Positions 618-18,083 of a DNA stretch of 21,284 bases are shown here, piece after piece. The stretch comes from Escherichia phage vB_EcoS-606R9. The position numbers and the translations under genes are program-made. The notes below the pieces were generated by a model. That model worked only from the letters and a program-made list of their open reading frames with translations. It did no database searches and was not told the DNA's origin. The stretch lies in sequence record ON470581; one strand, written 5' to 3'. Within the stretch, counting starts at the first letter, position 1. Each line of letters begins with the position of its first letter.

Positions 618-2075
618 ATGAATACATCTCATGTAAGAGTTGTTACTCATATGTGTGGGTTCCTGGTTTGGCTCTATAGTCTTTCAATGTTGCCACCAAT
701 GGTTGTAGCATTGTTTTATAAAGAAAAAAGCCTGTTCGTTTTCTTTATAACTTTCGTTATATTTTTTTGCATTGGTGGCGGAGCGTGGTATACAACTAAG
801 AAATCTGGCATTCAATTACGTACCCGTGATGGGTTTATTATAATTGTAATGTTTTGGATTTTGTTTTCTGTTATTAGTGCATTCCCTTTATGGATTGACT
901 CAGAACTTAATTTAACGTTCATTGATGCTCTGTTTGAAGGGGTTTCTGGAATAACAACAACAGGAGCAACTGTAATTGATGATGTTAGTTCATTACCTCG
1001 GGCATATTTGTACTATCGGTCACAGTTAAATTTTATAGGTGGTTTAGGAGTTATTGTTCTGGCGGTTGCTGTATTGCCATTATTGGGTATTGGTGGTGCA
1101 AAGCTTTATCAGTCAGAAATGCCGGGGCCATTTAAGGATGACAAACTCACTCCCCGCCTGGCCGATACGTCACGGACACTGTGGATAACTTATTCTTTAT
1201 TAGGTATTGCTTGTATTGTCTGTTATAGACTTGCAGGAATGCCTTTGTTTGATGCTATTTGTCACGGGATTTCCACAGTTTCGCTTGGTGGTTTCTCAAC
1301 TCATAGCGAGAGTATCGGATATTTTAATAACTATTTGGTTGAGCTGGTGGCTGGTTCTTTTTCCCTGCTATCGGCTTTCAACTTCACTCTTTGGTATATT
1401 GTTATTAGCAGGAAAACGATAAAACCTTTAATCAGAGATATTGAACTTCGTTTCTTTCTGTTAATAGCCTTAGGGGTGATCATTGTTACCTCTTTCCAGG
1501 TCTGGCATATAGGTATGTATGACTTGCATGGAAGTTTTATTCATTCGTTTTTTCTTGCCAGCTCCATGCTCACTGATAATGGTTTAGCTACGCAGGATTA
1601 TGCAAGTTGGCCCACGCACACGATAGTGTTTTTGCTGTTGTCAAGTTTCTTTGGGGGATGTATAGGTTCAACTTGTGGTGGAATTAAGTCACTTCGATTT
1701 CTTATACTTTTCAAACAAAGCAAACACGAGATAAATCAGCTTTCTCATCCCAGAGCGTTGTTGAGTGTAAATGTAGGAGGGAAGATAGTTACAGATCGTG
1801 TAATGAGGTCTGTATGGAGTTTCTTTTTTCTTTATACTCTCTTCACGGTGTTTTTTATACTGGTGTTAAATGGTATGGGATATGATTTTCTTACATCATT
1901 TGCAACAGTGGCTGCATGTATTAATAATATGGGATTAGGTTTTGGGGCTACTGCATCGTCATTCGGAGTGCTTAATGACATTGCAAAATGTTTAATGTGC
2001 ATAGCTATGATTCTTGGTCGCCTTGAAATTTATCCTGTTATTATATTGTTTTCAGGTTTTTTTTGGCGCTCCTAA
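618..2075 (+). CDS. trkG: TrkG-type potassium uptake membrane protein (TrkH/TrkG family), prophage moron
   Basis: 485 aa from ATG 618 (track ORF starts at TTG 600); strongly hydrophobic multi-pass protein with repeated glycine-rich P-loop-like segments (GVSGITTTGATV, IGGLGVIVLAV, GGFSTHS, NNMGLGFGA). Begins MNTSHVRVVTHMCGFLVW, which matches E. coli Rac-prophage TrkG from memory. Markedly AT-rich compared with the flanking phage genes. Confidence 0.85.
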   Translation: MNTSHVRVVTHMCGFLVWLYSLSMLPPMVVALFYKEKSLFVFFITFVIFFCIGGGAWYTTKKSGIQLRTRDGFIIIVMFWILFSVISAFPLWIDSELNLTFIDALFEGVSGITTTGATVIDDVSSLPRAYLYYRSQLNFIGGLGVIVLAVAVLPLLGIGGAKLYQSEMPGPFKDDKLTPRLADTSRTLWITYSLLGIACIVCYRLAGMPLFDAICHGISTVSLGGFSTHSESIGYFNNYLVELVAGSFSLLSAFNFTLWYIVISRKTIKPLIRDIELRFFLLIALGVIIVTSFQVWHIGMYDLHGSFIHSFFLASSMLTDNGLATQDYASWPTHTIVFLLLSSFFGGCIGSTCGGIKSLRFLILFKQSKHEINQLSHPRALLSVNVGGKIVTDRVMRSVWSFFFLYTLFTVFFILVLNGMGYDFLTSFATVAACINNMGLGFGATASSFGVLNDIAKCLMCIAMILGRLEIYPVIILFSGFFWRS

Positions 2076-2161: not shown

Positions 2162-2196
2162 CCCCAGTAGCACTGGCTGCTGGGGTGCGTTTTATT
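2162..2196 (+). terminator. Putative intrinsic terminator downstream of trkG
   Basis: Inverted repeat CCCCAGTAGC / GCTGCTGGGG (about 10 bp stem with one G-U, 4-nt loop) followed by TGCGTTTTATT; sits at the AT-rich to GC-normal transition. Confidence 0.45.
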
Positions 2197-2212: not shown

Positions 2213-3004
2213 ATGAGCGAGAAATTAAAGATAGTCTATCGCCCATTACAAGAATTGTCACCGTATGCGCACAACGCCAGGACGCACAGCCCTGAGCAGG
2301 TGGCACAACTGGTAGAAAGTATTAAGCAATTCGGCTGGACTAATCCGGTGCTGATTGACGAAAAGGGCGAAATTATTGCGGGTCACGGTCGTGTTATGGC
2401 GGCTGAAATGCTCAAAATGGATTCTGTTCCGGTCATTGTTCTGTCTGGCCTGACGGATGAGCAGAAAAAGGCGTACCGCCTGGCAGATAATCGCCTGCCG
2501 ATGAATGCTGGCTGGGATGAAGATCTGTTGCGGATGGAGCTGTCGGACCTAATCAATGCTGATTTTGATGTCTCCCTGACAGGCTTCATCCCGACAGAAA
2601 TTGATGAACTGTTGACGGATGTTTTGCCCGGTACAGGAAATGAGGAGGAGCCGTATACGACGAAAATTGATACGCCTGTTTATGAGCCGTCGGGCGGTAA
2701 ACCGGATATCAGTGAACTGTACGACGATACGAAAACTCAGGAGCTGATCAGCCGGATACGTTCGGCGTCCCTTGAGCCTGATATTGAGAAATTCCTCCTG
2801 TGTGCGGCAGAACGTCACACGGTGTTTAATTTCAGCAGAATTGCGGACTATTACGCTCACGCCCCCTCTGAAATTCAGTGTTTTTTCGAGGAGTCGGCGC
2901 TGGTGATCATTGATTATCAGCAGGCTATTGAAAATGGATTTGTCCGGATGACGCAGCGCATGGTGGAGATCATGCATGGTGGTGAGGAGGAGGAATATGC
3001 GTGA
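2213..3004 (+). CDS. ParB-like nuclease domain (ParB/Srx fold) protein
   Basis: N-terminal segment KIVYRPLQELSPYAHNARTHSPEQVAQLVESIKQFGWTNPVLIDEKGEIIAGHGRVMAA resembles the ParB N-terminal domain core, including the G-x-x-R motif; acidic C-terminal half. AAGG Shine-Dalgarno 6 nt upstream of the ATG. Lies between the moron and the packaging genes. Confidence 0.6.
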   Translation: MSEKLKIVYRPLQELSPYAHNARTHSPEQVAQLVESIKQFGWTNPVLIDEKGEIIAGHGRVMAAEMLKMDSVPVIVLSGLTDEQKKAYRLADNRLPMNAGWDEDLLRMELSDLINADFDVSLTGFIPTEIDELLTDVLPGTGNEEEPYTTKIDTPVYEPSGGKPDISELYDDTKTQELISRIRSASLEPDIEKFLLCAAERHTVFNFSRIADYYAHAPSEIQCFFEESALVIIDYQQAIENGFVRMTQRMVEIMHGGEEEEYA

Positions 3005-4119: not shown

Positions 4120-5214
4120 ATGAGCAGACCGGACTGGGGGGCGTTGCAGCAGGAGTATATTGCTGAATACACCCGCTCCGGTATATCTCCGGTGGCATGG
4201 TGTGAAGCAAGGGGACTGAATTACGCAACAGCCCGTCGTTACATCAAAAAAACTCCGAAAAATGCGCAGACAGAAATGTGCAAAACTGCGCAAAAAAGTG
4301 CGCAGAAAAAATCTGCGCAGACTGCACAAAAGCGGAACGAAAAATCTCAGGAAAAAAAGCCAGTATTCGATGCGGGCCTGAATGAGGGCGACGCGGAGGA
4401 ATTTTCGTTCTGTCCCGATGAATTCGGCATTTCTGACCAGCAGGCTAAGTTTGCGATGCTTGTTGCTCAGGGTAAAAAGCCGACAGAGGCGTACCGACTA
4501 GCCGGTTATGAGGGGCAAGGTGCGACAGCTAACAGCAACGCCAGTCGTATGCTTAGAAATGCCAGGGTTTTTCGCGCTATCAGCTACTTCCGCAATCAGT
4601 ACCAGAAACGCTATACCGCAGACCTGGATTTACTAGTGAGTCAGTTGATGGCTATTGTCCTGGCCGACCCCAATCAGCTTGCACAATTTCGCCGTGTTAA
4701 CTGCCGTTATTGCTGGGGCGAGAATCATCTCTACCAGTGGCGCGATATAGCAGAATTCGACAAGGCAGCGGCGCAGGCTTCCAGAGATGGCAAACCCGAA
4801 CCGGAATATGGAGGCCTCGGCTTTGTTGATAACGCCATACCCAATCCGGACTGCCCGAAGTGCTGCGGTGAGGGAACGGGACAGCTTTATATGGCTGATA
4901 CCACTCTGCTTGATGGGGATGCGCGGCAATTATATGCAGGGGCAAAATTCGGAAAATTCGGCGTTGAGATCCTGCTGGAGGATAAGGCTGCCGCCCGGCG
5001 TGAATTGTTGCGTTTGCTTTCTGCTGGCGGGGATTTATGTGCAGATAAGCGGCTACAGGAACTGGAAATTGAACGGCGCAGAATGGAAAACCAGAAGCTG
5101 CGCAAAGAGATCGAAACGGTGGAAGATAATGAACATCCCCAGCCTGTGGCGATCAATATTAATGTGGTTGATGCCAGAGTAAGGAGTGATGAAGATGATC
5201 TCTCCGACGCTTAA
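4120..5214 (+). CDS. Putative terminase small subunit (DNA-recognition component)
   Basis: Sits immediately upstream of, and overlaps, the large terminase gene; N-terminal HTH-like segment (GISPVAWCEARGLNYATARRYIKK), a Lys/Gln-rich low-complexity linker, Cys-rich segment (CRYCW...CPKCC), C-terminal coiled coil. Assigned by position and architecture. Confidence 0.5.
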   Translation: MSRPDWGALQQEYIAEYTRSGISPVAWCEARGLNYATARRYIKKTPKNAQTEMCKTAQKSAQKKSAQTAQKRNEKSQEKKPVFDAGLNEGDAEEFSFCPDEFGISDQQAKFAMLVAQGKKPTEAYRLAGYEGQGATANSNASRMLRNARVFRAISYFRNQYQKRYTADLDLLVSQLMAIVLADPNQLAQFRRVNCRYCWGENHLYQWRDIAEFDKAAAQASRDGKPEPEYGGLGFVDNAIPNPDCPKCCGEGTGQLYMADTTLLDGDARQLYAGAKFGKFGVEILLEDKAAARRELLRLLSAGGDLCADKRLQELEIERRRMENQKLRKEIETVEDNEHPQPVAININVVDARVRSDEDDLSDA

Positions 5215-6496
5215 TGTGCCTCAGGCGCGATTTCTTTCAATGCCCCATAAATTTAAAGCCTATATTGCTGGTTTTGGCTCGGGCAAAACATGGGTTGGGT
5301 GTGGCGGCATATGCAAGGGGATTTGGGAGCATCCAGGTATAAATCAGGGATATTTTGCGCCAACGTATCCCCAAATTCGCGATATTTTTTACCCTACAGT
5401 GGAAGAAGTTGCTGCTGACTGGGGATTGAACGTAAAAATTAATGAGGGAAATAAAGAGGTTCACTTTTATTACGGACGCCAGTATCGGGGAACCACTATC
5501 TGCAGATCGATGGAGAAGCCACAAACGATCGTCGGTTTCAAAATTGGTAATGCGTTGGTGGATGAACTGGACATTTTGCCGAAGGAAAAAGCCAGAACGG
5601 CGTGGCGCAAGATAATTGCGCGTATGCGTTATAAGATTGATGGACTTCGCAACGGTATTGACGTTACAACCACGCCGGAAGGATTCAAATTTGTCTACGA
5701 GCAGTTTGTTAAAGCCGTGCGTGAAAAAACAGAGCTGGCCTCACTGTATGGTCTGGTGCAGGCATCTACTTTCGATAATGAAAAGAACCTGCCAGCAGAT
5801 TACATTCCTTCGCTTCTTGAATCATACCCTCCAGAGCTGATTAAAGCCTATCTGCGAGGACAGTTTACTAACCTGACAAGTGGTACTGTTTACCATCAGT
5901 TTGACCGGAAACTGAATAATTGCGAAGAAGTGGAGCAGCCAGGGGAGCCGATTTATATTGGGATGGATTTTAACGTTGGAAAGATGGCGGGAATCGTCCA
6001 TGTGCTGCGTTTGGGGCTTCCATGTGCGGTAACTGAAATCATCAATGCCTACGATACGCCGGATATGATCCGCATCATTAAAGAACGCTTCTGGCTGTAT
6101 GATGGGAATGATTACCGGAAAGTGAGGGAAATTTATATTTATCCAGATGCTTCCGGGGATTCCAGAAAATCAAGTAACGCAAGTACGACGGATATAGCCC
6201 AGCTTAAGCAGGCTGGTTTTAACGTTGTGGTGAACAGCTCGAACCCGCCAGTAAAAGATCGCGTTAACTCAATGAATGCAATGTTCTGCAATGCCAATGG
6301 TGAGCGTCGCTATAAAGTTAATGTGAAGCGTTGCCCGTTATATGCCGAATCTCTGGAGCAACAGGTCTGGGATGAGAAGGGGGAGCCTGATAAAAAATCT
6401 GGCAATGATCACCCGAATGATGCCGGAGGTTATTTCATCGTTAAGCAATTCCCTATTGTCAAACCGACCGGAAGAGTCACATCACTTCGGATTTAA
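5195..6496 (+). CDS. Terminase large subunit (ATPase/nuclease)
   Basis: Walker A-like YIAGFGSGKT near the N-terminus and Walker B-like ALVDELD; sits between the putative small terminase and portal genes. ATG 5195 chosen for its spacing from AAGGAG at 5181-5186; alternative starts at 5186 and 5189. Confidence 0.8.
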   Translation: MISPTLNVPQARFLSMPHKFKAYIAGFGSGKTWVGCGGICKGIWEHPGINQGYFAPTYPQIRDIFYPTVEEVAADWGLNVKINEGNKEVHFYYGRQYRGTTICRSMEKPQTIVGFKIGNALVDELDILPKEKARTAWRKIIARMRYKIDGLRNGIDVTTTPEGFKFVYEQFVKAVREKTELASLYGLVQASTFDNEKNLPADYIPSLLESYPPELIKAYLRGQFTNLTSGTVYHQFDRKLNNCEEVEQPGEPIYIGMDFNVGKMAGIVHVLRLGLPCAVTEIINAYDTPDMIRIIKERFWLYDGNDYRKVREIYIYPDASGDSRKSSNASTTDIAQLKQAGFNVVVNSSNPPVKDRVNSMNAMFCNANGERRYKVNVKRCPLYAESLEQQVWDEKGEPDKKSGNDHPNDAGGYFIVKQFPIVKPTGRVTSLRI

Positions 6497-6498
6497 TT

Positions 6499-7905
6499 AT
6501 GGCTGATATATCAACACCCAACCTCGACTATAACGATATGCTGGAGGCGTGGGATATTAACGACGCACTGATGGGCGGTACGCTTGAAATGCGCAGGCAG
6601 GGGGAAAATTATCTCCCAAAATGGCCTAACGAAGATGAAGACGCTTATAAAAAACGCCTGTCTGTGGCTACGCTACTTCCTGTGTATGAAGAAAGCATCA
6701 AGCAAAATATTGGGCGCATATTTGCAGAGCCGACAGTATTGAGTGAGGAAACGCCGGCAAAAATCAGGGAATATGCAGAAAATATCGACATGGAGGGAAG
6801 CCGACTGGATGTGTGGGCGCAGCAATTTTTCAGCCTCGCATTTCAGTATGGTGTGGCACATGCGCTGGTGGACTATCCACGAACGGATATGAAAGAGATT
6901 CGGACAAAAGCCGATGAAAACGCGGCCGGTAGTCGTCCGTACGTTACGATGCTGAATCCACGCCAGGTTATTGGATGGAAATCGAAAGTTGAAAAAGGGA
7001 AAGTTGTTCTCACTGATTTGCGTATAAAAGAGGTCATCATTATTGATGGTGATGATTTCGGGCAGAAGAAGGTGGAGCAGATCCGCCATATTATGCCCCG
7101 TCGAGTTGAAATTTATCGACGTAGCGAAGGCACTAATGGCGAATCTGTCTGGACGCTTCATGAGTCATGGAATACCAGCCGTGATGATATTCCTCTGGTA
7201 ACACTGTACACGAAGAAAACAGGATTTATGCGTGGTACACCGCCATTGCTTAATCTTGGCTTGCTGAATATCAAGCACTGGCAAAGCCAGAGCGAGCAGG
7301 ACAATATTCTTCATGTTGCCCGCGTTCCATTGCTGGTGGCCTACGGGCTGGACAGGAATGAAGAACTGACGGTTGGTGCATCCACCGCTACGATTTTTGA
7401 GGACAGAACAAAAAATGGCCTCGAATATGTTGAACATAGTGGCGCAGCGATAGAATCTGGCGAAACATCACTTGAGAAGCTGGAAAATCAGATGCGTCAT
7501 GCCGGCGCTAAACTTCTGCGTGCTGAAAATACATCCACCAAATCTGTTGATCAGACTAATGAAGAGCGAATGCAGGAAAACTCGCCGCTTTATACAATGG
7601 CGAACTCCCTCGAAGATGCCCTCGATAATATTCTCCAGATAATGGCGGAATGGATCGGAGAGAGTTGCGGTGGCAATGTGGATGTGCGCACTGAACTGGA
7701 TGTATCTGCCCAGGTGTTTGACTCATCCTCCGCGCTGGCTGTTCAGTCATTGCGTCAGGGCGGTGATATACGTCAGATTGATGCGATTCGGGTGTTGCAG
7801 GCGTTGAAATTTATCGATCAGGATTCCCGTCCAGAGGAAGTGATCGATGAATTAAAAAATCAGAGTGTAATGCTGATGGAAATCAATGATGCAAACCGTG
7901 AATGA
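6499..7905 (+). CDS. Portal protein (putative)
   Basis: 468-aa ORF starting 3 nt after the large terminase stop; size and position typical of a portal gene. No motif verified. Confidence 0.6.
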   Translation: MADISTPNLDYNDMLEAWDINDALMGGTLEMRRQGENYLPKWPNEDEDAYKKRLSVATLLPVYEESIKQNIGRIFAEPTVLSEETPAKIREYAENIDMEGSRLDVWAQQFFSLAFQYGVAHALVDYPRTDMKEIRTKADENAAGSRPYVTMLNPRQVIGWKSKVEKGKVVLTDLRIKEVIIIDGDDFGQKKVEQIRHIMPRRVEIYRRSEGTNGESVWTLHESWNTSRDDIPLVTLYTKKTGFMRGTPPLLNLGLLNIKHWQSQSEQDNILHVARVPLLVAYGLDRNEELTVGASTATIFEDRTKNGLEYVEHSGAAIESGETSLEKLENQMRHAGAKLLRAENTSTKSVDQTNEERMQENSPLYTMANSLEDALDNILQIMAEWIGESCGGNVDVRTELDVSAQVFDSSSALAVQSLRQGGDIRQIDAIRVLQALKFIDQDSRPEEVIDELKNQSVMLMEINDANRE

Positions 7906-9001
7906 ACGGCTGCGTGATGAATCAATTGCTCATGCAGTCTGGATATCCCGCTATAGCACTGGCGTGGCTGCCAGAATGGTGAAAATACTGAATGACAGCG
8001 ATGCGGAACTTACTGCTCGCCTGCTGATAGCACTGGACAGCCTCGATCCAGGTAGTTTTACCGTTAAGCGCCTGGAGTCACTTCTGGCGAGCGTCAGAGA
8101 GGTTAACCGCACTGCTATTAACAGCATGTTTACCAGTCTCTCCGGAGAGCTGAACGAGCTGGCAATTTATGAGGCTGGTTATCAGTTAAGTCTGTTTGAT
8201 TCTATGCTACCTGATTTTGTTGCTGATGTTCACCCTCTGGTTGGTATCTCTCCTGATGCACTTTATGCCGCTGCAATGGCGCGACCATTTCAGGGACGAC
8301 TGCTCAGTGAGTGGGCCTCAGATCTTGAGGCGGATCGGCTCAGACGCATAACAAATACAGTGCGTCAGGGTTTTTTGCTGGGGGATACCAATGAGCAGAT
8401 CGCAAGAAAAATTCGGGGACATGTCAGTAAGGGATTTCAGGATGGTGCATTGCAGATGAGCCGGGCTAATGCGGCCAGCATTGCAAAAACAGCGGTTGGA
8501 CATCTTGCTGCTACTGCCCGTGAGAGTTTTGCCAGCGCGAATAATGATTTGATTAAGGGTAAGCAATGGTTATCAACGCTTGATAATCGTACTACGCCAC
8601 AATGTCGAATCAGGGATCGCCTCAAATATACGCTGAATAATAAACCTGTAGGTCACAGCGTGCCTTATTTGCAGGGGCCGGGAAAAATTCATTTCTGCTG
8701 CCGCTCAACGGAAACGTTCATTCTGAAATCAGCGAAGGAACTGGGTATTGATGTTCGCGATATTTCCCCGGCTGAGCGGGCCAGCATGGATGGCGTGGTG
8801 GCCGGAGATACAACCTACAGGGAATGGTTTTTGCGTCAGCCTTACACCAGACAAAAACAGATTGTGGGGGAAACCCGAGCAAAGCTGATTCGGGATGGTG
8901 GTATGTCGCCAGATGAATTTTACACCGATAAAGGCGAATGGCTGACGCTGAAGCAGCTCCGTGAGCGTGATGCACAGGTATTCAGAAAAGCAGGGATTTA
9001 A
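7886..9001 (+). CDS. Head morphogenesis protein (MuF / SPP1 gp7-like minor head protein), putative
   Basis: 371-aa ORF overlapping the portal 3' end; a portal, MuF-like, scaffold, capsid order is typical. Assigned by position and general resemblance. Confidence 0.55.
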   Translation: MMQTVNERLRDESIAHAVWISRYSTGVAARMVKILNDSDAELTARLLIALDSLDPGSFTVKRLESLLASVREVNRTAINSMFTSLSGELNELAIYEAGYQLSLFDSMLPDFVADVHPLVGISPDALYAAAMARPFQGRLLSEWASDLEADRLRRITNTVRQGFLLGDTNEQIARKIRGHVSKGFQDGALQMSRANAASIAKTAVGHLAATARESFASANNDLIKGKQWLSTLDNRTTPQCRIRDRLKYTLNNKPVGHSVPYLQGPGKIHFCCRSTETFILKSAKELGIDVRDISPAERASMDGVVAGDTTYREWFLRQPYTRQKQIVGETRAKLIRDGGMSPDEFYTDKGEWLTLKQLRERDAQVFRKAGI

Positions 9002-9020
9002 ATAAATCATTTATTACAAC

Positions 9021-9048
9021 AGGCTACCTTCGGGTGGCCTTTTTTATT
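9021..9048 (+). terminator. Intrinsic terminator-like hairpin after the head morphogenesis gene
   Basis: AGGCTACC-TTCG-GGTGGCCT (8-bp stem with one G-U, UUCG tetraloop) followed directly by TTTTTATT. Confidence 0.65.
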
Positions 9049-9105
9049 GCTGCGATCCGGATGGTGAGCAGCGTAACTGTCGGAAGACTTAAACCAGGTA
9101 CTAAT

Positions 9106-9870
9106 ATGAAACTGAAAACGGTCGAGATTAACGGAAAACAATACGCAGAAATTGATACTGCTGGCCTGCCAGTTTATGTGCACGACGATGGTAAAGAAAT
9201 TGGCTTCGATGCACCGCTGGCGACAAAAAAAATTACAGAGCTTAATAGCGAGGCAAAAAATCATCGCCTGGCTAAAGAAGCTGCAGAGGAAAAACTGGCT
9301 AAGTTTGCCGCTATCGAAGACCCGAAGAAGGCGATCGAGGCACTGGAAATGCTGTCAAAAATCGACCAGAAAAAGCTGCTCGATGCGGGACAGGTTGACC
9401 AGGTTAAGGCAGAAATTACGAAAAATTTTCAGCAGCAATTAGATGAAGAAAAGCAACGCTCTCAGATGCTGGAGAAGCAGCTTTACGATTCTATGATTGG
9501 CGGTAGTTTTGCGGGTTCAAAATATATTGCCGATAAAATTGCGATCCCGGCAGATTTATTACAATCACGCTTCGGGCAGGCATTCAAAGTGGAAGAAGGG
9601 AGGATCGTTGCTTATGACGCTTCCGGCAACAAAATTTATTCCCGCGCGAAGCCTGGCGAACTGGCGCAGTTTGATGAGGCGCTGGAGTTCCTTGTCGAAA
9701 ATTACCCTCAGAAAGACTACATCCTGAAAGCCAGTGGCAACAATGGCGGCGGCTCCCGTCCGACACAGCATGATATTGGTCAGAAAACGATGAAACGCTC
9801 TGCTTTTGATGCACTGGATGTTGCAGGTAAGCAAAACGCATTGAAAGACGGTATCACAATCGTTGATTAA
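9106..9870 (+). CDS. Scaffolding protein (putative)
   Basis: Helical, charged, coiled-coil-like sequence (EAAEEKLAKFAAIEDPKKAIEALEMLSKIDQKKLLDAG...) immediately upstream of the major capsid gene. Track ORF starts at 9034, but that overlaps the terminator hairpin; ATG 9106 (MKLKTVEING) preferred, ATG 9061 possible. Confidence 0.5.
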   Translation: MKLKTVEINGKQYAEIDTAGLPVYVHDDGKEIGFDAPLATKKITELNSEAKNHRLAKEAAEEKLAKFAAIEDPKKAIEALEMLSKIDQKKLLDAGQVDQVKAEITKNFQQQLDEEKQRSQMLEKQLYDSMIGGSFAGSKYIADKIAIPADLLQSRFGQAFKVEEGRIVAYDASGNKIYSRAKPGELAQFDEALEFLVENYPQKDYILKASGNNGGGSRPTQHDIGQKTMKRSAFDALDVAGKQNALKDGITIVD

Positions 9871-9968
9871 CACATTTGTCAGCTTCCGGATGGGAGCTGG
9901 TGTCAGGGCTGGATAGCTCATTACTCCATCTATTCACAATTACGCAAATTTTTAAGGAATATTTAATT

Positions 9969-11108
9969 ATGGCTGGAAATACCCTGACCGGGTTGATCCC
10001 GACTATTTATACCGCCCTGGATGTTGTATCCCGTGAGCAGGTAGGTTTTATCCCTGCGGTAGCAAAAAACGCAAAAGCTGACGCCGCAGCAAAAGATCAG
10101 ACGGTAACCGCGCCAGTTGCGCCTGAGGCGAAAACCGAAGATATCGTACCGGGGCCGTCAGCTCCGAATACCGGTGATCAAAATATTGGCACTGTTGATG
10201 TAAAAATTACTAAATCCAAAATGGCACCGGTTAAATGGAATGGTGAAGAACAACTGGCTCTTGGTCCTTCAGGGACTTACAACACCATTCTGGCTGATCA
10301 GTTCAAGCAGGCTTTTCGCGCCCTTGCAAACGAGGTTGAGGCTGATCTTGGTGCGTTGTATTTCGGTGCTTCCCGCGCCGTGGGAACCGCAGGGACAACG
10401 CCGTTTGGTGTTAAAGATGATCTTTCTGATGCTGCTCTGGCTCGTCAGGTTCTGGAGGATAACGGCGCACCGACAACCGATCTGCAGATGGTGCTTGGCT
10501 CCACTGCCATTGCTAATTTGCGCGGAAAACAGTCTGTATTGTTTAAAGTGAATGAATCCGGCACTGAACAGCTACTGCGTGAGGGCGTGTTGGGGCGTCT
10601 GGAGGGATTCAATATTCACAGTTCGGCAGGTGTGAAACGAGCGCCAAAGGTTGCTGCAACTGGTTATCTCGTGAATGGAGAGAAAAAAGAAGGCGATGTT
10701 CTTATTTCCATTGATACTGGTTCGGGGAGTATTTCTGCAGGTCAGATTGTTACGTTCGCTGGTGATCCGAATCAGTATGTTGTGGCAGCAGCGACCAGCA
10801 ATCTGATTACTCTTGCAGCGCCCGGACTGCGTCAGGATCTGGCCGATGATACTGCCATCACAGTTGTTGGGGCCTTTACTGCAAATATGGCGTTTGATCG
10901 CAACGCGTTTCTGCTGGCATCCCGTACTCCGGCAATGCCGGAAGGTGGCGATAATGCTGATGATGTAATGAATGTTACGGACCCGATTTCAGGGATTACG
11001 TTCCAGATTGCACTGTATCGTCAGTATCGCCAGGTGCGCTATGAAGTTGGACTGGCATGGGGTGTTTCATCAGTGAAGCCGGCACATGGTTGTCTGATTC
11101 TTGGTTAA
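9969..11108 (+). CDS. Major capsid protein (putative)
   Basis: 379 aa from ATG 9969 with AAGGA about 10 nt upstream (track ORF begins at TTG 9876 with no RBS); follows the scaffold gene and is followed by a strong terminator hairpin, typical of a highly expressed coat gene. Confidence 0.65.
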   Translation: MAGNTLTGLIPTIYTALDVVSREQVGFIPAVAKNAKADAAAKDQTVTAPVAPEAKTEDIVPGPSAPNTGDQNIGTVDVKITKSKMAPVKWNGEEQLALGPSGTYNTILADQFKQAFRALANEVEADLGALYFGASRAVGTAGTTPFGVKDDLSDAALARQVLEDNGAPTTDLQMVLGSTAIANLRGKQSVLFKVNESGTEQLLREGVLGRLEGFNIHSSAGVKRAPKVAATGYLVNGEKKEGDVLISIDTGSGSISAGQIVTFAGDPNQYVVAAATSNLITLAAPGLRQDLADDTAITVVGAFTANMAFDRNAFLLASRTPAMPEGGDNADDVMNVTDPISGITFQIALYRQYRQVRYEVGLAWGVSSVKPAHGCLILG

Positions 11109-11118
11109 ACATTCAAAC

Positions 11119-11140
11119 GGGGCTTCGGCCCCATTTTTAA
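11119..11140 (+). terminator. Intrinsic terminator-like hairpin after the major capsid gene
   Basis: GGGGC-TTCG-GCCCC (5-bp all-GC stem, UUCG tetraloop) followed by ATTTTTAA, 11 nt after the capsid stop. Confidence 0.55.
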
Positions 11141-11150
11141 TGGGGGGCAT

Positions 11151-11327
11151 ATGGCCGGATTAACTAAAGAGCAAAGAGCACAGCGTGAAGCCGCACAAAA
11201 AACGCAAATTGAGTTAGTGGTTATGGTGACCGATTATCAGATGTTTCCCGGCGCACCAACTATCGCTAATGTTCATCCTGATGAAGTTGACAACTGGAAG
11301 GCTATGGGCTGGAAAACTCAGGAGTAA
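11151..11327 (+). CDS. Small hypothetical protein (58 aa), not in the supplied ORF track
   Basis: ATG 11151 to TAA 11325-11327, translating MAGLTKEQRAQREAAQKTQIELVVMVTDYQMFPGAPTIANVHPDEVDNWKAMGWKTQE; fills the gap between the capsid terminator and the next gene, same strand. Coding status unproven. Confidence 0.3.
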   Translation: MAGLTKEQRAQREAAQKTQIELVVMVTDYQMFPGAPTIANVHPDEVDNWKAMGWKTQE

Positions 11328-12905: not shown

Positions 12906-13868
12906 GTGAGTTCAGGTGCAAAGGTTATCTCGGCATTTATCCGGGAGACAGTTGCAGGCACTACGCCAGCAAGTGGTGACTGGAGTTTATTAAAACGCAC
13001 AAGCTGGGGAGTAAAACCCACCCAGAATAAAGGCGAAAATAATGAGATTGGTGGCTCCCGGATGGCTCAGGGGGCGACGCCTGGCACTGTGGATGTCGGC
13101 GGTGATGTTGGTACCAAATTTCGCTGGGGTCAACATGATGATTTTCTTGCATCCTGTTTCGGCGCGGAATGGTCAGGCGATTCTCTGACAATGGGGAATG
13201 AGCGAATAACATTTTCTCTGGCGACCTATGCGTCCGATGTCGGAATTGCCTCTGTCGTCAGAGGAGCGCAGGTTGGCTCATGGAAAATGCAGATCCCTAA
13301 CGACGGCGATATTACAGCGACCGTAACCTTTGCCGGGCTGGGCTGGGAAACAAAGGCCGATGATACGAATTTTATCAAAGGCAAACCTGTGGATAGTGCA
13401 GGAAAGTTACGCTATTCGTTTAAGGAGGTTTCAGCAGTAAGCCTGAATGGTGTTGCCGGAGGTAACGGTTTTTGTATCGACAGTTTTGATATTCAGTTCG
13501 ATAACAAACTCCAGACACAGCGTTGTATCGGGACTGGCTCGCCTTATGCAGGAGCAAATATTCCGACTACTTTTACACCGTCCGGTACGGTGACGCTTTC
13601 ATGGTCTAAAGCCGCGTGGGAAATCTGGAGTAAAACACTGACTGGAGAAACAGTTCCGTTCAGCTTCACGCTTTCGAATGGAGAGGGGGCATACACTTTC
13701 AGTTTCCCGAAGGTTCAGGTGTCAGGTGAATGGCCTGATGGGGGTAATACTGACATTATCCAGGTTCAATTGAGCATTACCGCAGCAGATGAAGCACCTA
13801 CGATAACCAGAAAAAAATGCTCCCCGACTGCCGTGATCGCAAAAGCCAGTGCTGATGCGATTAGTTGA
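12906..13868 (+). CDS. Major tail (tube) protein (putative)
   Basis: 320-aa ORF with GTG start 12906, preceded by ATAGGAGG; Gly/Thr/Ser-rich beta-type composition; sits directly upstream of the G/G-T chaperone pair, as lambda V does. Confidence 0.6.
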   Translation: MSSGAKVISAFIRETVAGTTPASGDWSLLKRTSWGVKPTQNKGENNEIGGSRMAQGATPGTVDVGGDVGTKFRWGQHDDFLASCFGAEWSGDSLTMGNERITFSLATYASDVGIASVVRGAQVGSWKMQIPNDGDITATVTFAGLGWETKADDTNFIKGKPVDSAGKLRYSFKEVSAVSLNGVAGGNGFCIDSFDIQFDNKLQTQRCIGTGSPYAGANIPTTFTPSGTVTLSWSKAAWEIWSKTLTGETVPFSFTLSNGEGAYTFSFPKVQVSGEWPDGGNTDIIQVQLSITAADEAPTITRKKCSPTAVIAKASADAIS

Positions 13869-13880
13869 TTTTCCGTTATT

Positions 13881-13907
13881 CCCCCTGTGGTACTGCACTA
13901 CAGGGGG
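13881..13907 (+). promoter_or_regulatory. Hairpin upstream of the tail chaperone gene that includes its likely Shine-Dalgarno
   Basis: CCCCCTGT (13881-13888) pairs with ACAGGGGG (13900-13907), 8-bp stem and 11-nt loop, no U-tract. The GGGGGA at 13903-13908, the best SD for ATG 13917, lies in the 3' arm. Confidence 0.35.
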
Positions 13908-13916
13908 ACGCATTGA

Positions 13917-14378
13917 ATGAGGTTATGGATGTTTATTCTTAATCAGAAAATTATCATCGGTGGAGAACGCTGGTTTACGCCAATGAAGGACTTAAAACCT
14001 GTAGACGGGTTAAAACTGTTGGTGGCAAGCAGCGATAACGATCAGTATCGCTCCCGTAATGCATTAATCCGTCGTCACATTGAGAAAATGGATGCCAGTT
14101 TGCACGTCGGAACGAAGGAGTTTGATATTTCAAAGGTTTCCGAGGTAGATTCTGTTGATGATTTACTCATTGATAATGCTGCTCGTTATCTGCTGAAAGA
14201 CTGGAAAGGGGTTGGTGAACTGGTTAATGGTGCTGAGGTTGCACTGGAATATACGCCAGAACGAGGGATCGCGCTGCTTAAGCAGAATCCAGAGTTGTAC
14301 TGGCAGATCCTTGCAGAAGCAGCCAGCATCGCCCAGGGTAAAGAGCAGCAGAAGCAGGATACGATAAAAAAGCCATAG
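13917..14378 (+). CDS. G: Tail assembly chaperone (lambda gpG analogue)
   Basis: 153-aa acidic ORF between the major tail and tape measure genes, ending in the slippery heptamer A_AAA_AAG just before its TAG stop. Downstream ATGs at 13929 and 13983 are alternative starts. Confidence 0.65.
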   Translation: MRLWMFILNQKIIIGGERWFTPMKDLKPVDGLKLLVASSDNDQYRSRNALIRRHIEKMDASLHVGTKEFDISKVSEVDSVDDLLIDNAARYLLKDWKGVGELVNGAEVALEYTPERGIALLKQNPELYWQILAEAASIAQGKEQQKQDTIKKP

Positions 14379-14686: not shown

Positions 14687-14810
14687 TTGTTAATTACGTA
14701 CACTCTGTTACAGAGATGTGATGGTGTCTTTAATTAAATCGATGATGCTCCTGGAGAAAAGCATTGCGTGGCCTCGTAATCGCTATATCTACTATTATGT
14801 CGCCTGAAAC

Positions 14811-14838
14811 CCACTTCGGTGGGCTTTTTGTTGTCTGG
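14811..14838 (+). terminator. Terminator-like hairpin just upstream of the tape measure gene
   Basis: CCCAC-TTCG-GTGGG (5-bp stem, UUCG tetraloop) followed by CTTTTTGTTGT; lies in the 163-nt spacer between the G-T stop (14686) and the tape measure start (14850). Confidence 0.45.
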
Positions 14839-14849
14839 AGTTTTAATAA

Positions 14850-17348
14850 ATGGCAGAGCAAACCTCGCGTCTCGCAATAATTATTGATAGCACTGGAGCA
14901 AAAAATAATGCTGACAATCTGACCTCCTCATTAGTCAAAATGACGCAGGCCGGGGAAACTGCTGCAAATAGCGCAGGGAAAGTGACTAAGGCAACAGAAG
15001 ATGAGAAGAACGCGCTCGCAAAATTAAAAGTAGCTATTGATCCAGTTGGTGCCGCAATTGATACTGTCGGTCGACGCTATTCTGAATTAAAGAAATTTTT
15101 CGATAAAGGGCTTATTGATAAAGAAGAATATGAATTTCTTGTCCGTAAACTTAATGAAACCACAGAGGAATTGAGCGGGGTTGCGCAAGCGCAGAGAGAA
15201 GCCGAGAAGGCCGGAAAACTTGCTGCCGCCCAGCAGGAAGCGCAGGCTCAGGCCTTTCAAAGAATGCTGGACAAGATCGACCCTCTGGCTGCGGCGCTAA
15301 GAAATCTTGAACAACAGCAGGATGAACTTAATGCTGCGTTTGCATCCGGGAAAATAAATGGTTCTCAGTTTGAGAATTATAGCCGAAAAATACAGGAAAC
15401 ACGGCGAGAGCTTACCGGAGAGGCTCAGGCAGAGCGAGAAGCAGCAAAAGCGCATGATGAACAGGTTGCTGCTTTGCAACGTCTGATTGCTCAACTTGAC
15501 CCTGTCGGAACTGCTTTTAATCGTCTGGTAGAACAACAGAAACAGCTCAATGAAGCAAAAGCTAAGGGGATGCTCTCTCCTGAAATGTATGAGGAACTTT
15601 CTGGAAAACTTCGTGCTATGCGGAGTGAGCTTGAGGTTACTCAATCTCAATTAAGCAAAACCGGAATGTCGGCAAAACAAACGGCTTTTGCTATGCGCAT
15701 GTTGCCTGCACAAATGACGGATATTGTTGTTGGGTTGTCCACTGGTCAGTCGCCTTTTATGGTGTTAATGCAGCAGGGCGGCCAGCTAAAAGATATGTTC
15801 GGTGGGATTGGCCCGGCGATCAAAGGTGTTGGTTCTTATGTGCTGGGATTAATTAATCCTTTTACCCTGGCCGCAGCAGCCGTTGGCGTCTTAGGGCTGG
15901 CTTACTATAAAGGCTCTCAGGAGCAGGACGAATTTAATAAATCTCTTATTCTTACCGGAAATCAGTTGGGGACAACCAGCGGGCAATTGGCCGATATAGC
16001 TCAACGTGCCGGGAATGCGGCTGATTCGACAACTGGCGCTGCGGCGGCAGTATTAAACCAGCTTGTGCGTTCGGGAAAGGTAGCGAGCAGTTCGCTGGAG
16101 CAAGTGACGACAGCGATAGTAAAAACGAGCGAAGTAACAGGAATATCAACCGAACAACTGGTTAATGACTTCAATGAAATTGCAAAGGATCCTGTCAGTG
16201 CCATATCAAAACTTAATGATCAGTACCATTTTCTGACAATTGCGACTTATAACCAGATTAAGGCGCTACAGGATGAAGGGAACCAGCAGGAGGCCGCCCG
16301 CATTGCGACAGAAGCATACTCATCCTCAATGATCCAGCGCACCAACCAGATTAAAGAAAATCTTGGTTATCTTGAGACTGCATGGAAAGCTGTCGCAGAC
16401 TCCGCAAAATGGGCATGGGATTCCATGCTGGACATTGGCCGTGAGGCCTCCCTTGATCAAAAAATCTCAGATGTTCTCCGTCAAATTGATGAAATAGAAA
16501 AAAATACCCGACCCGGAGTTTTCGGGTTAGGTGGCATTGGAGATGGCGGAGCTCAAAATAAAAGGCTGGCACGATTAAAGCAGCAATTGGGCGTACTTCA
16601 AGCAGAAAAAATTGCTCAGGACGTCCTAAATTCATCAATAAACGATTACAACAAGCGACAACAGGAAGGAATTGAACTCAGACAGAGAGCAGATGCCTTT
16701 TCAAAACAATATCAGACCCGGGAGCAGCAGAGAGCTAGTGAACTTGCAAAACTGGAAAAGCTAAAGAGTCAGTATTCAAAGGAAGAATATAATAATTTTA
16801 TCGCTCAAATAAATGAGCGTTATAAAGATCCAAAGCAACCAAAGGCGAAAGGTTATTCGGATGATGCTGCCCAACGAATGATTGATCATCTGAATCAACA
16901 GAATGCGTTACTAAGTTCACAAACTGAATTAACCGTTAAATTAAGTTCCTCTGAACAGGAACTGGTTAAGTGGCGTCAGCAGATTGCCGACCTGGAGTCA
17001 CGACCGTCATCGAAATTAACCCAGGATCAGAAATCGCTTCTCTTACACCGGGAAGAAATAACCGCGTTGATGGAGAAAAATGTTGCGATTGAAAAAAATA
17101 ACAGGCTAATCAAGGAATCCGCCGAAATAGCTGCATGGCGTGATTTATTGCAGGCTTCGATTGATAATCGTCAACAGGGGTATGATATTCAGATTGCTGG
17201 TTATGGGGTTGGCGATAAAAATCAGCAACGCCAGCAGGAATTACTGCGGATTGAACGTGAATATAACAATCAGCGTCTGCAACTTGAACGTGACTATGCA
17301 GATAAATCCCGTGGGATGTCAAATCATGTTTTTCAGGAGAAAATGTAG
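14850..17348 (+). CDS. H: Tail tape measure protein, N-terminal 832 codons ending at an in-frame TAG
   Basis: Long Ala/Gln/Glu-rich coiled-coil ORF with an internal hydrophobic glycine-rich segment, directly after G/G-T and before the M, L, K, I, J homologues. The ORF ends at TAG 17346-17348, but the same frame stays open for a further 245 codons to 18083. Confidence 0.75.
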
Positions 17349-18083
17349 GCTCTGAATGATGCTCTGGAACGAGAAAAAGAAATTGTCAGACAGAAAAACG
17401 AGCAGCTCGATATTCAGGCAGGAGACTGGGTTAGTGGTGCCTCCCAGGGATTCAATAACTGGCTGGATGACACTAAGGATATCAGTGAGCAGATAAAATC
17501 AACCACGACTCAGATGTTTGATGGAATGACCGATGCGCTGGGTGATTTTGTCACGACAGGCAAGGCAAATTTTCGTTCTTTCGCTACTTCCGTGATTTCG
17601 GATCTTAGTCGAATAGCATTAAAGGCTTCAATTACTGGGATTTTCGACAGCATTAGTAACAGTTCTTCGGGGGGGATTTTAGGAACTATCGGGAGTGCTA
17701 TTAGTAAATTTATTCCGAATGCAAAGGGCGGTGTTTATGAGTCTCCGTCATTGAACACGTATTCGAACGGTATTTATGATTCCCCGCAATTTTTTGCTTT
17801 TGCAAAAGGGGCTGGTGTTTTTGGTGAGGCTGGTCCGGAAGCCATTATGCCATTAACACGAACATCCGATGGTTCTCTTGGTGTCAGAGCTATTAATAGT
17901 AAAAGTGGTAATGGAGGCGGAGATATTACCTATGCCCCTGTATACCAAATCACTATTCAAAATGACGGCCAGAATGGAGAGATTGGCCCTCAGGCAATAA
18001 AAGCACTTATGGGGATGGTTGATCAGCGGGTGCAGGGCAATCTGTTAAATATGCGACGTGATGGGGGAATGTTAAGTGGCTAA
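17349..18083 (+). CDS. H: Tail tape measure protein, C-terminal segment downstream of the in-frame TAG (same frame, no independent start signal seen)
   Basis: Frame is continuous with 14850..17348 (both coordinates are multiples of 3); encodes ...MFDGMTDALGDFVTTGKANFRSFATSVISDLSRIALKA..., which resembles the lambda gpH C-terminal region from memory. First ATG is at 17514 with no obvious SD. The stop overlaps the M start. Confidence 0.6.
   Translation, partial: ALNDALEREKEIVRQKNEQLDIQAGDWVSGASQGFNNWLDDTKDISEQIKSTTTQMFDGMTDALGDFVTTGKANFRSFATSVISDLSRIALKASITGIFDSISNSSSGGILGTIGSAISKFIPNAKGGVYESPSLNTYSNGIYDSPQFFAFAKGAGVFGEAGPEAIMPLTRTSDGSLGVRAINSKSGNGGGDITYAPVYQITIQNDGQNGEIGPQAIKALMGMVDQRVQGNLLNMRRDGGMLSG

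What the first reader, a model, noticed from the sequence alone, without database searches (positions are those of the whole stretch)
9021..11140. UUCG-tetraloop terminator hairpins inside the late operon
Two hairpins share a TTCG loop and a following T-run: AGGCTACC-TTCG-GGTGGCCT after the head morphogenesis gene (9021-9048) and GGGGC-TTCG-GCCCC after the capsid gene (11119-11140). A third of the same design, CCCAC-TTCG-GTGGG, precedes the tape measure gene (14811-14838). In a Q-antiterminated late transcript these would be read through during lytic growth, but they could set stoichiometry (scaffold/capsid versus downstream genes), stabilise 3' ends, or silence late genes in the lysogen.
Basis: seen in the sequence. 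Interest (0 to 1): 0.4.

Follow-up and report, generated by a model that had tools for sequence, protein, structure and literature searches.

The report
Intrinsic terminator hairpins in prophage late operon
Three small UUCG-loop RNA hairpins followed by U-runs sit between structural genes of a Rac-like E. coli prophage; they are real, conserved transcription-terminator-type signals of a kind already annotated in lambda, P22, HK97 and HK639, so the finding is sound but ordinary.

Summary
All lie on the operon strand, in intergenic gaps, and each is followed by a T-run. Shuffled sequence yields 0.014 such sites; none of 1000 shuffles reached 3.

The window is the late region of a Rac-like lambdoid prophage. 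A Q-like antiterminator gene lies upstream in an identical phage record.

All three positions are conserved in relatives:
- H1 keeps an invariant T-run and shows compensatory stem changes.
- H2 (GGGGC-UUCG-GCCCC) is nearly invariant across many Enterobacterales genera.
- H3 keeps its place, but its sequence and loop turn over.

The shared UUCG design is therefore selected only at H2.

Verdict: real intrinsic-terminator-type junction hairpins, already known as a kind. Function was not tested here.

More interesting by-products are conserved GGAU-tetraloop hairpins in the scaffold and capsid leaders, and an amber codon in the tape-measure gene.

The parts
9021..9048 (+). H1: AGGCUACC-UUCG-GGUGGCCU stem-loop plus U-run (UUUUUUAUU). 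It lies in the 104-nt gap between the Mu-F-like head morphogenesis gene (stop at 9001) and the scaffold gene (ATG at 9106).
   Evidence: -13.2 kcal/mol; pair probability about 0.99. In 51 distinct homologous sequences, 95.3% of cells are paired, 4 of 8 pairs show changes on both sides, and five T of the run are invariant. The homolog in HK639 is annotated 'terminator'.
11119..11138 (+). H2: GGGGC-UUCG-GCCCC stem-loop, then A + UUUUU. It starts 10 nt after the capsid stop codon and ends 12 nt before the start codon of a conserved 58-aa ORF (11151-11327).
   Evidence: (-9.6 kcal/mol). The exact 14-mer is present in 34 of 48 distinct relatives with capsid identity of at least 70%. The stop-to-hairpin spacer takes 24 distinct forms. 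P22 has AGGGGC-UGCG-GCCCCU at the same place, annotated as a stem_loop.
14807..14829 (+). H3: (AAA)CCCAC-UUCG-GUGGG, then C + UUUUU. It ends about 12 nt upstream of the tape-measure Shine-Dalgarno sequence and its ATG at 14850.
   Evidence: (-7.2 kcal/mol). A hairpin plus U-run is present at this spot in all relatives examined, but with different stems and loops. The K-12 Rac copy is CCCAC-UUCGCG-GUGGG + U6.
13880..13908 (+). Fourth junction hairpin (12 bp, loop ACUGC) between the tail tube gene and the tail assembly chaperone gene. It has no U-run in this window.
   Evidence: -22 kcal/mol, z = -3.6. Relatives carry a GCCCG...CGGGC hairpin plus T5-6 at the same junction. HK97's annotated 'putative terminator' after its major tail gene also lacks a U-run.
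9106..11108 (+). The scaffold (9106-9870) and major capsid (9969-11108) genes. This is the gene pair bracketed by H1 and H2.
2162..2185 (+). Terminator-like hairpin after the trkG moron, upstream in the same operon. It is context only: a source of Q-independent transcription in a lysogen.

Best explanation
H1, H2 and H3 are ordinary intrinsic (Rho-independent) terminator modules. Each is a G+C-rich hairpin capped by an extra-stable C(UUCG)G tetraloop and followed by a U-run. They sit at module junctions of the late operon of a Rac-like lambdoid prophage: before the scaffold-capsid pair, after the capsid gene, and before the tape-measure gene. A fourth hairpin follows the tube gene.

Inferred mechanism:
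- RNA polymerase that has not been modified by the phage Q-like antiterminator stops at these sites. Such polymerase could come from read-through out of the trkG moron, from moron promoters or from spurious starts in a lysogen. The structural genes therefore stay silent.
- Q-modified polymerase in lytic growth reads through.
- The hairpins then remain in the long mRNA, where they can also act as barriers to exonucleases.

H1 is a strong canonical terminator. H2 and H3 in this particular copy are weaker, with 5-bp stems and one non-U base before the U-run.

Shown: presence, non-randomness, folding, strand, positional conservation, covariation at H1, and parallels in annotated phages.
Inferred: actual termination, read-through by Q, and biological role.
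For: - Anatomy and statistics.
- Nascent-RNA folding probability is at least 0.97 for all three.
- The H1 U-run has 7 of 8 T in 41 of 46 distinct relatives scored (48 regions collected). Five T columns are invariant and the stem shows compensatory changes.
- In relatives with at least 70% capsid identity, H2 is followed by at least 5 of 8 T in most cases. The hairpin is conserved while its flanks vary.
- At H3 a hairpin plus U-run is kept although the sequence is replaced.
- A Q-like gene (DUF1133, 357 bits; Phage_antitermQ, 27 bits) and a terminator right after it occur upstream in the identical phage ON470595.
- The same junction pattern is annotated as terminators or stem-loops in HK639, HK97 and P22. 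It is also visible in the lambda sequence.
- UUCG-capped hairpins are a recognised class of Rho-independent terminator (PMC3972237, citing Tuerk 1988 and d'Aubenton Carafa 1990).
Against: - There is no transcript 3'-end evidence. The K-12 copy of H3 is not among the 3' ends in the Adams et al. 2021 supplements. That region is silent in K-12, so this is uninformative.
- H2 and H3 in this window have a non-U base between stem and U-run, and only 5-bp stems.
- Distant relatives (about 50% capsid identity, Burkholderiales and others) keep a hairpin after the capsid gene, often without a U-run.
- The hairpin after the tube gene lacks a U-run here and in HK97. This points to an RNA-level role that does not need termination.
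- The generic terminator scan finds 28 sites against 19.3 +- 4.3 in shuffles, so that scan alone is weak evidence.
Confidence: 0.65

Rival explanations
1. The hairpins act mainly at the RNA level as stability or processing elements: 3' exonuclease barriers, or protective 5' hairpins after RNase E cleavage. They would raise the lifetime of the scaffold-capsid and tube mRNA segments and so help set protein stoichiometry. Termination would be incidental.
For: - Hairpins follow exactly the two most abundant virion proteins, capsid and tube.
- The tube hairpin has no U-run here or in HK97.
- Distant relatives keep a capsid-downstream hairpin without a U-run.
- H2 is conserved as an exact 14-mer although its U-run varies: UUUGUU, UUUUCC, GCUUUACC.
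- H1 and H2 bracket the scaffold-capsid pair.
Against: - The H1 U-run is essentially invariant, which is unexplained by a pure stability role.
- H3 precedes a low-copy gene, the tape measure.
- No half-life or processing data exist.
- For lambda, relative late-gene expression was attributed to translation initiation rather than mRNA level (Sampson et al. 1988, from my memory, not checked here).
Confidence: 0.2
2. They are partial attenuators during lytic growth. A fraction of late transcription stops at each site even with Q, stepping down mRNA for downstream genes.
For: - H2 and H3 are sub-optimal terminators, as expected for partial sites.
- The same idea is offered for phage L (PMC8022706).
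Against: - Q-modified polymerase in lambda is highly terminator-resistant (established knowledge, not tested here).
- H1, the strongest site, lies upstream of the two genes needed in the highest amounts. That is the wrong direction for a step-down.
Confidence: 0.1
3. They are chance hairpins, or non-functional scars of recombination or moron insertion.
For: In relatives, morons are inserted directly 5' of the H1 and H3 homologs. They carry terminators that repeat the H1 3' arm plus T-run, GCGGCCTTTTTTATT.
Against: - None of 1000 shuffles gives three such sites.
- The positions are conserved across many genera, with covariation at H1.
- The window itself has no moron at H1 or H3.
Confidence: 0.03

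Closest known systems
Intra-operon 'putative terminators' of the HK97 late operon (RefSeq NC_002167 annotation) and of HK639 (NC_016158)
   Same: - Hairpins occupy the same junctions: before the prohead genes, after the major capsid gene, and before or after the major tail gene and tail chaperones.
- The HK639 site after the head morphogenesis gene (AGGUCGC-UUCG-GCGGCCU + U6) is the positional homolog of H1. It is followed by the same conserved scaffold leader.
   Different: - HK97 uses other stems and loops: GAAA after the capsid gene, AGAU before the tail gene.
- HK639 is reported to use RNA-based (put-type) antitermination (my memory, not checked here). This phage encodes a Q-like protein.
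Stem-loop after the major capsid gene in P22 (annotated 6102-6119, 'similar in location to stem-loops in phage HK97 and phage lambda') and in lambda (E-FI gap)
   Same: - P22 has AGGGGC-UGCG-GCCCCU + UUCUUU, the same stem as H2 with a UNCG loop.
- Lambda has AUGGCCC-UUCG-GGGCCAU + UGUUUCU, then the Shine-Dalgarno sequence of the next gene.
   Different: The lambda stem sequence is unrelated to H2. None of these has a demonstrated function.
Intra-late-operon terminator of Salmonella phage L (PMC8022706)
   Same: [quoted passage not shown]
- The authors propose partial termination or a block to spurious, non-antiterminated transcription, and state that the roles are not known.
   Different: It is a different phage (P22-like podovirus). 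The prediction is purely in silico.
C(UUCG)G extra-stable tetraloop hairpins in E. coli Rho-independent terminators and T4 mRNAs (Tuerk et al. 1988; d'Aubenton Carafa et al. 1990, as cited in PMC3972237)
   Same: All three window hairpins have UUCG closed by a C-G pair and are followed by a U-run.
   Different: Nothing is structurally different. Only H2 keeps the UUCG loop across relatives.
Moron-associated terminators of lambdoid phages (moron concept as summarised in PMC2629481)
   Same: Relatives carry morons inserted next to the H1 and H3 homologs, each with its own terminator.
   Different: In this window H1 and H3 do not flank an inserted gene. They are present whether or not a moron is there.

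Membership tests
Intrinsic (Rho-independent) terminator | G+C-rich hairpin with a short loop that forms in the nascent RNA | tested here: met
   The stems are 8, 5 and 5 bp, with energies of -13.2, -9.6 and -7.2 kcal/mol. Nascent-context pair probability is at least 0.97 for all three.
Intrinsic (Rho-independent) terminator | U-rich tract directly 3' of the stem | tested here: met
   H1 has UUUUUUAU directly after the stem. H2 has A + UUUUU and H3 has C + UUUUU, so each has one spacer base. In relatives the U-run is invariant at H1, at least 5 of 8 in most relatives at H2, and 6-8 of 8 at H3.
Intrinsic (Rho-independent) terminator | Produces transcript 3' ends or releases RNA polymerase | not testable with these tools
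   Only indirect evidence is available. No 3' end at the K-12 copy of H3 appears in the Adams et al. 2021 supplements, but the region is not expressed there.
C(UUCG)G tetraloop hairpin | UUCG loop closed by a C-G pair | tested here: met
   H1 reads C-UUCG-G, H2 reads C-UUCG-G and H3 reads C-UUCG-G, read directly from the sequence.
Conserved junction terminators or stem-loops of lambdoid late operons (HK97, HK639, P22/L, lambda) | Sense-strand hairpin in the gap right after the major capsid gene | tested here: met
   H2 begins 10 nt after the capsid stop codon. The same feature is seen in P22, lambda and HK97 and in 48 distinct relatives.
Conserved junction terminators or stem-loops of lambdoid late operons (HK97, HK639, P22/L, lambda) | Hairpins at the other module junctions (before the prohead genes, around the major tail gene) | tested here: met
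   H1 lies before the scaffold gene, the 13880-13908 hairpin lies after the tube gene, and H3 lies before the tape-measure gene. These compare with the HK97 and HK639 annotations.
Terminators overridden by Q-type processive antitermination | Q-family antiterminator gene and a promoter-proximal terminator upstream of the operon | tested here: met
   This lies outside the window, in the 100%-identical record ON470595. The Q-like protein matches DUF1133 (357 bits) and Phage_antitermQ (27.1 bits; cut-off 26). An AACCCGCC-AUCGA-GCGGGUU + U hairpin lies about 90 nt downstream.
Terminators overridden by Q-type processive antitermination | Read-through of H1-H3 depends on Q | not testable with these tools
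   This needs transcription assays.
Moron terminator | Directly follows an inserted, independently expressed gene that is absent from relatives | tested here: not met
   No extra gene lies next to H1 or H3 in the window. Relatives with and without morons all keep the hairpin.
Any Rfam family | Match at gathering score | tested here: not met
   There are no hits at gathering threshold in the whole window. Only chance-level hits (at most 21 bits) appear in 8950-10020.

The most novel reading that the evidence does not exclude
H1 and H2 may be more than terminators. They could be the two ends of a post-transcriptionally controlled scaffold-capsid mRNA module.
- Between them lie four strongly covarying hairpins. 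The three best-defined are capped by a conserved GGAU tetraloop. The fourth, a 3-bp stem in this window, is capped by GGAA and reads GGAU in relatives.
- Two are in the scaffold leader (9049-9072 and 9079-9088). Two are in the capsid leader (9877-9902 and 9906-9919).
- The set is conserved from Enterobacterales to Burkholderiales and Xanthobacter and is absent from Rfam.
- They would be operator sites for an RNA-binding protein. Candidates are the scaffold protein itself, by analogy with P22 scaffold autoregulation, or CsrA-type proteins that recognise GGA in hairpin loops.
- In this reading the UUCG hairpins protect the ends of the processed message.
Probability: 0.2. Interest if true: 0.6.

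Novelty: already known. Interest (0 to 1): 0.2.

Why it matters
As terminators, these sites add little. Intra-operon terminators and the stem-loop after the major capsid gene are already annotated in HK97, HK639, P22 and L, and the lambda sequence shows one too. Their role is acknowledged as unknown.

The useful outcome is comparative:
- H1 has covariation support.
- H2 is one of the most conserved non-coding 14-mers in this head-module family. It is shared with P22 except for one loop base, which makes it a clean target for finally testing what such hairpins do.
- The shared UUCG loop is not a common design of the three sites.

The by-product, a set of GGAU-loop hairpins in the scaffold and capsid leaders, could be a new translational control element for prohead proteins.

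Tried and rejected
1. H2 as half of a switch. In a 71-nt context the minimum-energy fold pairs GCCCC with the downstream GGGGGG Shine-Dalgarno sequence of the 58-aa ORF. I rejected this as a conserved mechanism. Most relatives have GGAGG(G) there, and the alternative pairing is specific to this variant.

2. Rfam at gathering and at permissive thresholds gave nothing meaningful.

3. K-12 Term-seq supplements (Adams et al. 2021) list no 3' end at the Rac copy of H3. The locus is silent in K-12, so this is uninformative. A second Term-seq paper had no supplements held.

4. The 58-aa protein downstream of H2 as a CsrA-like RNA binder: no Pfam match. Not pursued further.

5. Literature searches for CsrA plus phage capsid or GGA motifs, and for HK639 terminators, found nothing relevant. 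Tuerk 1988 and Wyckoff & Casjens 1985 are not held in the library.

6. The generic terminator scan alone is weak evidence: 28 sites found against 19.3 +- 4.3 expected.

7. My first automatic hairpin parser mis-assigned loops and let stems extend into the U-run. I replaced it with a G-C-trimmed version and exact-motif counts.
Full report
WHAT THE WINDOW IS

The window is the late (lysis end, packaging, head, tail) region of a Rac-like lambdoid prophage of E. coli. It is 99.8-100% identical over the tested segment to nine phage records. Eight are induced E. coli phages (vB_EcoS-683R6 and others) and one is a Salmonella phage, SPF_0923. The H3 region is present in 1076 of 5426 complete E. coli genomes.

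Gene order:
- spanin end
- trkG moron, 600-2075
- ParB-like ynaK, 2213-3004
- small terminase, 4120-5214
- large terminase, to 6496
- portal, 6499-7905
- Mu-F-like head morphogenesis protein, 7886-9001
- scaffold (DUF6651), 9106-9870
- P22-type major capsid protein, 9969-11108
- a conserved 58-aa ORF, 11151-11327
- adaptor and neck genes
- tail tube, 12906-13868
- tail assembly chaperone, 13917-14378, with a -1 frame extension to 14686
- tape measure, from 14850
- tail tip genes

K-12 Rac is a deleted version of this element.

In the identical record ON470595, a Q-like gene lies upstream of the lysis genes. It matches DUF1133 at 357 bits and Phage_antitermQ at 27 bits against a cut-off of 26. 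A terminator hairpin follows it.

THE OBSERVATION

All three hairpins exist as described:
- H1 is AGGCTACC-TTCG-GGTGGCCT at 9021-9040, followed by TTTTTATT.
- H2 is GGGGC-TTCG-GCCCC at 11119-11132, followed by A and TTTTT.
- H3 is CCCAC-TTCG-GTGGG at 14810-14823, followed by C and TTTTT.

Energies are -13.2, -9.6 and -7.2 kcal/mol.

They are the only G+C-rich TTCG-loop hairpins of 5 bp or more on either strand. Dinucleotide-preserving shuffles give a mean of 0.014 such terminator-like sites. None of 1000 shuffles reaches three.

All three are on the operon strand and lie in intergenic gaps. Such gaps make up about 3.6% of the region (my count). On the opposite strand none has a U-run, so they are unidirectional (read).

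In-context partition-function folding keeps H1 at about 0.99 and H3 at 0.92-0.99. H2 falls to 0.3-0.6 at equilibrium because a downstream G-run competes for its 3' arm. It is 1.0 in the nascent-RNA context that matters for termination.

COMPARATIVE EVIDENCE

I collected relatives from three sources:
- annotated phages: Klebsiella phage 5 LV-2017, ST405-OXA48phi1.3, Flyfo Tbat2_3 and HK639;
- 80 IMG/VR contigs;
- 49 loci from one genome per species.

H1. In 51 distinct sequences upstream of the scaffold gene, five T of the run are invariant columns. The 8-bp stem is paired in 95.3% of cells, and 4 of 8 pairs show changes on both sides, for example A-U to G-C at pair 6. Some relatives have wholly different stems, such as GGUCAC/GUGACC and GGUCGC/GCGGCC. 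The loop is not fixed: UCCG is commoner than UUCG, and UCAG, UCCA, UUAG, UACG and others occur. After trimming to the G-C core, 41 of 46 variants scored have 7 of 8 T downstream. H1 is a well-supported canonical terminator.

H2. Among 48 distinct relatives with at least 70% capsid identity:
- 34 carry the exact 14-mer GGGGCTTCGGCCCC;
- 39 carry GGGGC-N4-GCCCC;
- 42 carry a C-UNCG-G loop.

These relatives span Escherichia, Citrobacter, Klebsiella, Serratia, Pantoea, Erwinia, Rahnella, Tatumella, Providencia, Pectobacterium, Enterobacter, Kluyvera and others. The spacer between stop codon and hairpin takes 24 different forms of 4-16 nt.

Informative variants are Photorhabdus GGGGA-UUCG-UCCCC, which is compensatory, and the loops UACG, UGCG, CUCG and UUAG.

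The U-run is present but variable: UUUUUUU, UUUGUUUUU, UUUUCCUUU, GCUUUACC. Relatives at about 50% capsid identity (Cupriavidus, Pararobbsia, Xanthobacter, Desulfuromonadales) still have a G+C-rich hairpin after the capsid gene, often without a U-run.

H3. Every relative examined has a hairpin plus U-run ending about 10-15 nt before the tape-measure Shine-Dalgarno sequence, but the hairpin itself turns over. Forms seen are:
- CCCAC-UUCG-GUGGG;
- CCCAC-UUCGCG-GUGGG, in K-12 and in about half of the E. coli copies;
- GGCCCCGC-loop-GCGGGGC, after a lom-like moron;
- AGCCCGG-CAUGU-CCGGG;
- others.

A fourth junction hairpin follows the tube gene at 13880-13908 (12 bp, -22 kcal/mol, z = -3.6, no U-run in the window). 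Relatives have a GCCCG...CGGGC hairpin plus T5-6 there.

The 'shared TTCG design' is thus a real, selected property only of H2. At H1 and H3 selection acts on 'stable hairpin plus U-run'.

A plausible reason for UUCG at H2 (inference): the gap is only about 40 nt and holds the next gene's ribosome-binding site. A 5-bp all-G-C stem with an extra-stable tetraloop is the most compact stable hairpin available.

WHAT IS ALREADY KNOWN

- HK639's RefSeq record annotates four 'terminator' features in its late operon. One is the positional homolog of H1 (AGGUCGC-UUCG-GCGGCCU + U6), followed by the same scaffold leader.
- HK97's record annotates 'putative' terminators after the portal gene, after the major head gene (GAAA loop), and before and after the major tail gene.
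- P22's record annotates a stem_loop right after coat gene 5, 'similar in location to stem-loops in phage HK97 and phage lambda'. Its sequence is AGGGGC-UGCG-GCCCCU, the H2 stem with another UNCG loop.
- Lambda has AUGGCCC-UUCG-GGGCCAU in the E-FI gap.
[quoted passage not shown] It offers partial termination or a block to spurious non-antiterminated transcription (PMC8022706).
- SPP1 late gene clusters are likewise delimited by stem-loop terminators (PMC6316719).
- UUCG-capped hairpins are a recognised class of Rho-independent terminator (PMC3972237).

The finding is therefore another instance of an annotated, though functionally unresolved, feature.

MECHANISM

Best-supported reading (confidence 0.65): these are intrinsic terminators at module junctions.
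- They stop polymerase that lacks the Q modification. Such polymerase could come from read-through out of the trkG moron upstream, whose own terminator at 2162-2185 has a poor U-run. It could also come from moron promoters or spurious starts in a lysogen.
- They are read through in lytic growth.

Second reading, not exclusive (0.2): an RNA-level role as stability or processing elements.
- For: hairpins follow the two most abundant virion proteins. The tube hairpin here and in HK97, and the capsid hairpin in distant relatives, lack U-runs.
- Against a pure stability role: the invariant U-run of H1.

Partial attenuation in lytic growth (0.1) fits poorly, because the strongest site sits upstream of the genes needed in the largest amounts.

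Chance or scars (0.03) is contradicted by the shuffles and by conservation.

Morons in relatives are inserted immediately 5' of the H1 and H3 homologs. They carry terminators that repeat the H1 3' arm plus T-run. These junctions are therefore also preferred insertion or recombination points. I read that as a consequence of their being operon-neutral sites, not as their function.

No step involving actual termination, Q read-through or RNA stability was tested.

BY-PRODUCTS

(a) GGAU-loop hairpins in the scaffold and capsid leaders.
- The roughly 60 nt between the H1 U-run and the scaffold start is more conserved than the neighbouring coding DNA. It folds into hairpins capped by GGAU or GGAA tetraloops closed by C-G:
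  - GCUGC[GAUCC-GGAU-GGUGA]GCAGC at 9049-9072;
  - GUC-GGAA-GAC at 9079-9088, which reads GGUC-GGAU-GACC in relatives;
  - in HK639-type leaders, a third hairpin, GGCC-GGAA-GGCC, beside the Shine-Dalgarno sequence.
- On 51 sequences, with the H1 stem counted in the same structure, 94.7% of cells are paired against at most 57% for slid controls. 16 of 23 pairs change on both sides against 6.2 +- 1.3 in shuffles. The GGA is invariant.
- The scaffold-capsid gap holds two more: UGUCAGCUUCC-GGAU-GGGAGCUGGUG at 9877-9902 and GGGCU-GGAU-AGCUC at 9906-9919. Here 96.4% of cells are paired and 11 of 16 pairs change on both sides.
- Relatives with a short 17-24 nt scaffold-capsid gap lack these two. Among those, the HK639-type ones have three hairpins in the scaffold leader.
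- The motif is also present in prophages of Cupriavidus, Pararobbsia, Janthinobacterium and Xanthobacter. It is absent from Rfam.
- GGA in hairpin loops recalls CsrA/RsmA sites (my memory). However, some Burkholderia species and S. meliloti lack chromosomal csrA (PMC7366521), and the motif occurs in prophages of other Burkholderiales and of an alphaproteobacterium. A phage-encoded binder is therefore at least as likely. One candidate is the scaffold protein, by analogy with P22 scaffold autoregulation (Wyckoff & Casjens 1985; the reference was seen, the paper was not read).

(b) The tape-measure gene carries an in-frame TAG at 17346-17348. The 99.8%-identical complete phage vB_EcoS-666R9 has CAG there and a single 1077-aa CDS.

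(c) Deposited CDS starts for the scaffold (GTG 9034, inside H1) and the capsid (TTG 9876) are probably wrong. Homologs support ATG 9106 and ATG 9969.

VERDICT

As a kind of feature it is already known, so interest is low (0.2). The GGAU-hairpin leaders deserve a finding of their own.

Noticed in passing
window 9049-9072, 9079-9088, 9877-9902, 9906-9919 (+ strand): Four hairpins lie in the 5' leaders of the scaffold and capsid genes. Three are capped by a GGAU tetraloop and one (9079-9088) by GGAA; each loop is closed by a C-G pair.
- The GGA is invariant and the stems covary strongly. In the scaffold leader, counted together with the H1 stem, 16 of 23 pairs change on both sides and 94.7% of cells are paired. 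In the capsid leader 11 of 16 pairs change on both sides and 96.4% are paired. Slid controls reach at most 57%.
- The motif is conserved in prophages from Enterobacterales to Burkholderiales and Xanthobacter. It is not in Rfam.
- It is a candidate translational operator, with the scaffold protein or a CsrA-like protein as binder.
   Followed up: partly
window 17346-17348: There is an in-frame TAG inside the tape-measure gene (14850-18083). The 99.8%-identical complete phage vB_EcoS-666R9 has CAG here and one 1077-aa CDS. Four 100%-identical records share the stop and are annotated with two 'tape measure' CDS. This is either a nonsense mutation, giving a defective tail gene, or a site that needs suppression.
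   Followed up: yes
window 13880-13908: A strong 12-bp hairpin (-22 kcal/mol, z = -3.6) lies between the tail tube and tail chaperone genes, without a U-run. Relatives have a canonical terminator at the same junction. HK97's annotated terminator after its major tail gene also lacks a U-run.
   Followed up: partly
window 9034 and 9876 (annotated CDS starts in ON470595 and similar records): The deposited scaffold CDS starts at a GTG inside hairpin H1, and the capsid CDS starts at a TTG inside the GGAU-hairpin leader. Homolog alignments and the 378-379 aa length of over 100 homologs support ATG 9106 and ATG 9969.
   Followed up: yes
L002 5295-5828 and 11680-12543; L004 5342-5581; L063/L025/L050/L055 upstream of the tape-measure gene; L005 4786-4900: Relatives carry morons inserted exactly 5' of the H1 and H3 homologs. 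These include a roughly 80-aa ORF, a lom/ail-like outer-membrane protein gene, and a 38-aa hydrophobic ORF in HK639. Each has its own terminator, and the 3' arm plus T-run (GCGGCCTTTTTTATT) repeats that of H1. This suggests recombination at the terminators.
   Followed up: partly
window 11134-11148: In this variant the Shine-Dalgarno sequence of the 58-aa ORF is GGGGGG, whereas most relatives have GGAGGG. This creates an alternative CCCCAUUUUUAAUGGGG(GG) pairing that competes with H2 at equilibrium. It is not conserved.
   Followed up: yes
window 600-2075 and 2162-2185: The trkG potassium-transporter moron sits inside the late operon, as in K-12 Rac. It has its own 10-bp hairpin but a poor U-run (TGCGTTTTAT). 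It is a likely source of Q-independent transcription entering the packaging genes in lysogens.
   Followed up: no
window 14687-14809: About 120 nt of apparently non-coding sequence lies between the end of the chaperone -1 frame ORF and H3. Relatives with about 50% tape-measure identity have only about 90 nt between the end of the chaperone match and the tape-measure start codon. The stretch is conserved in K-12 Rac between ydaY and ynaA.
   Followed up: no
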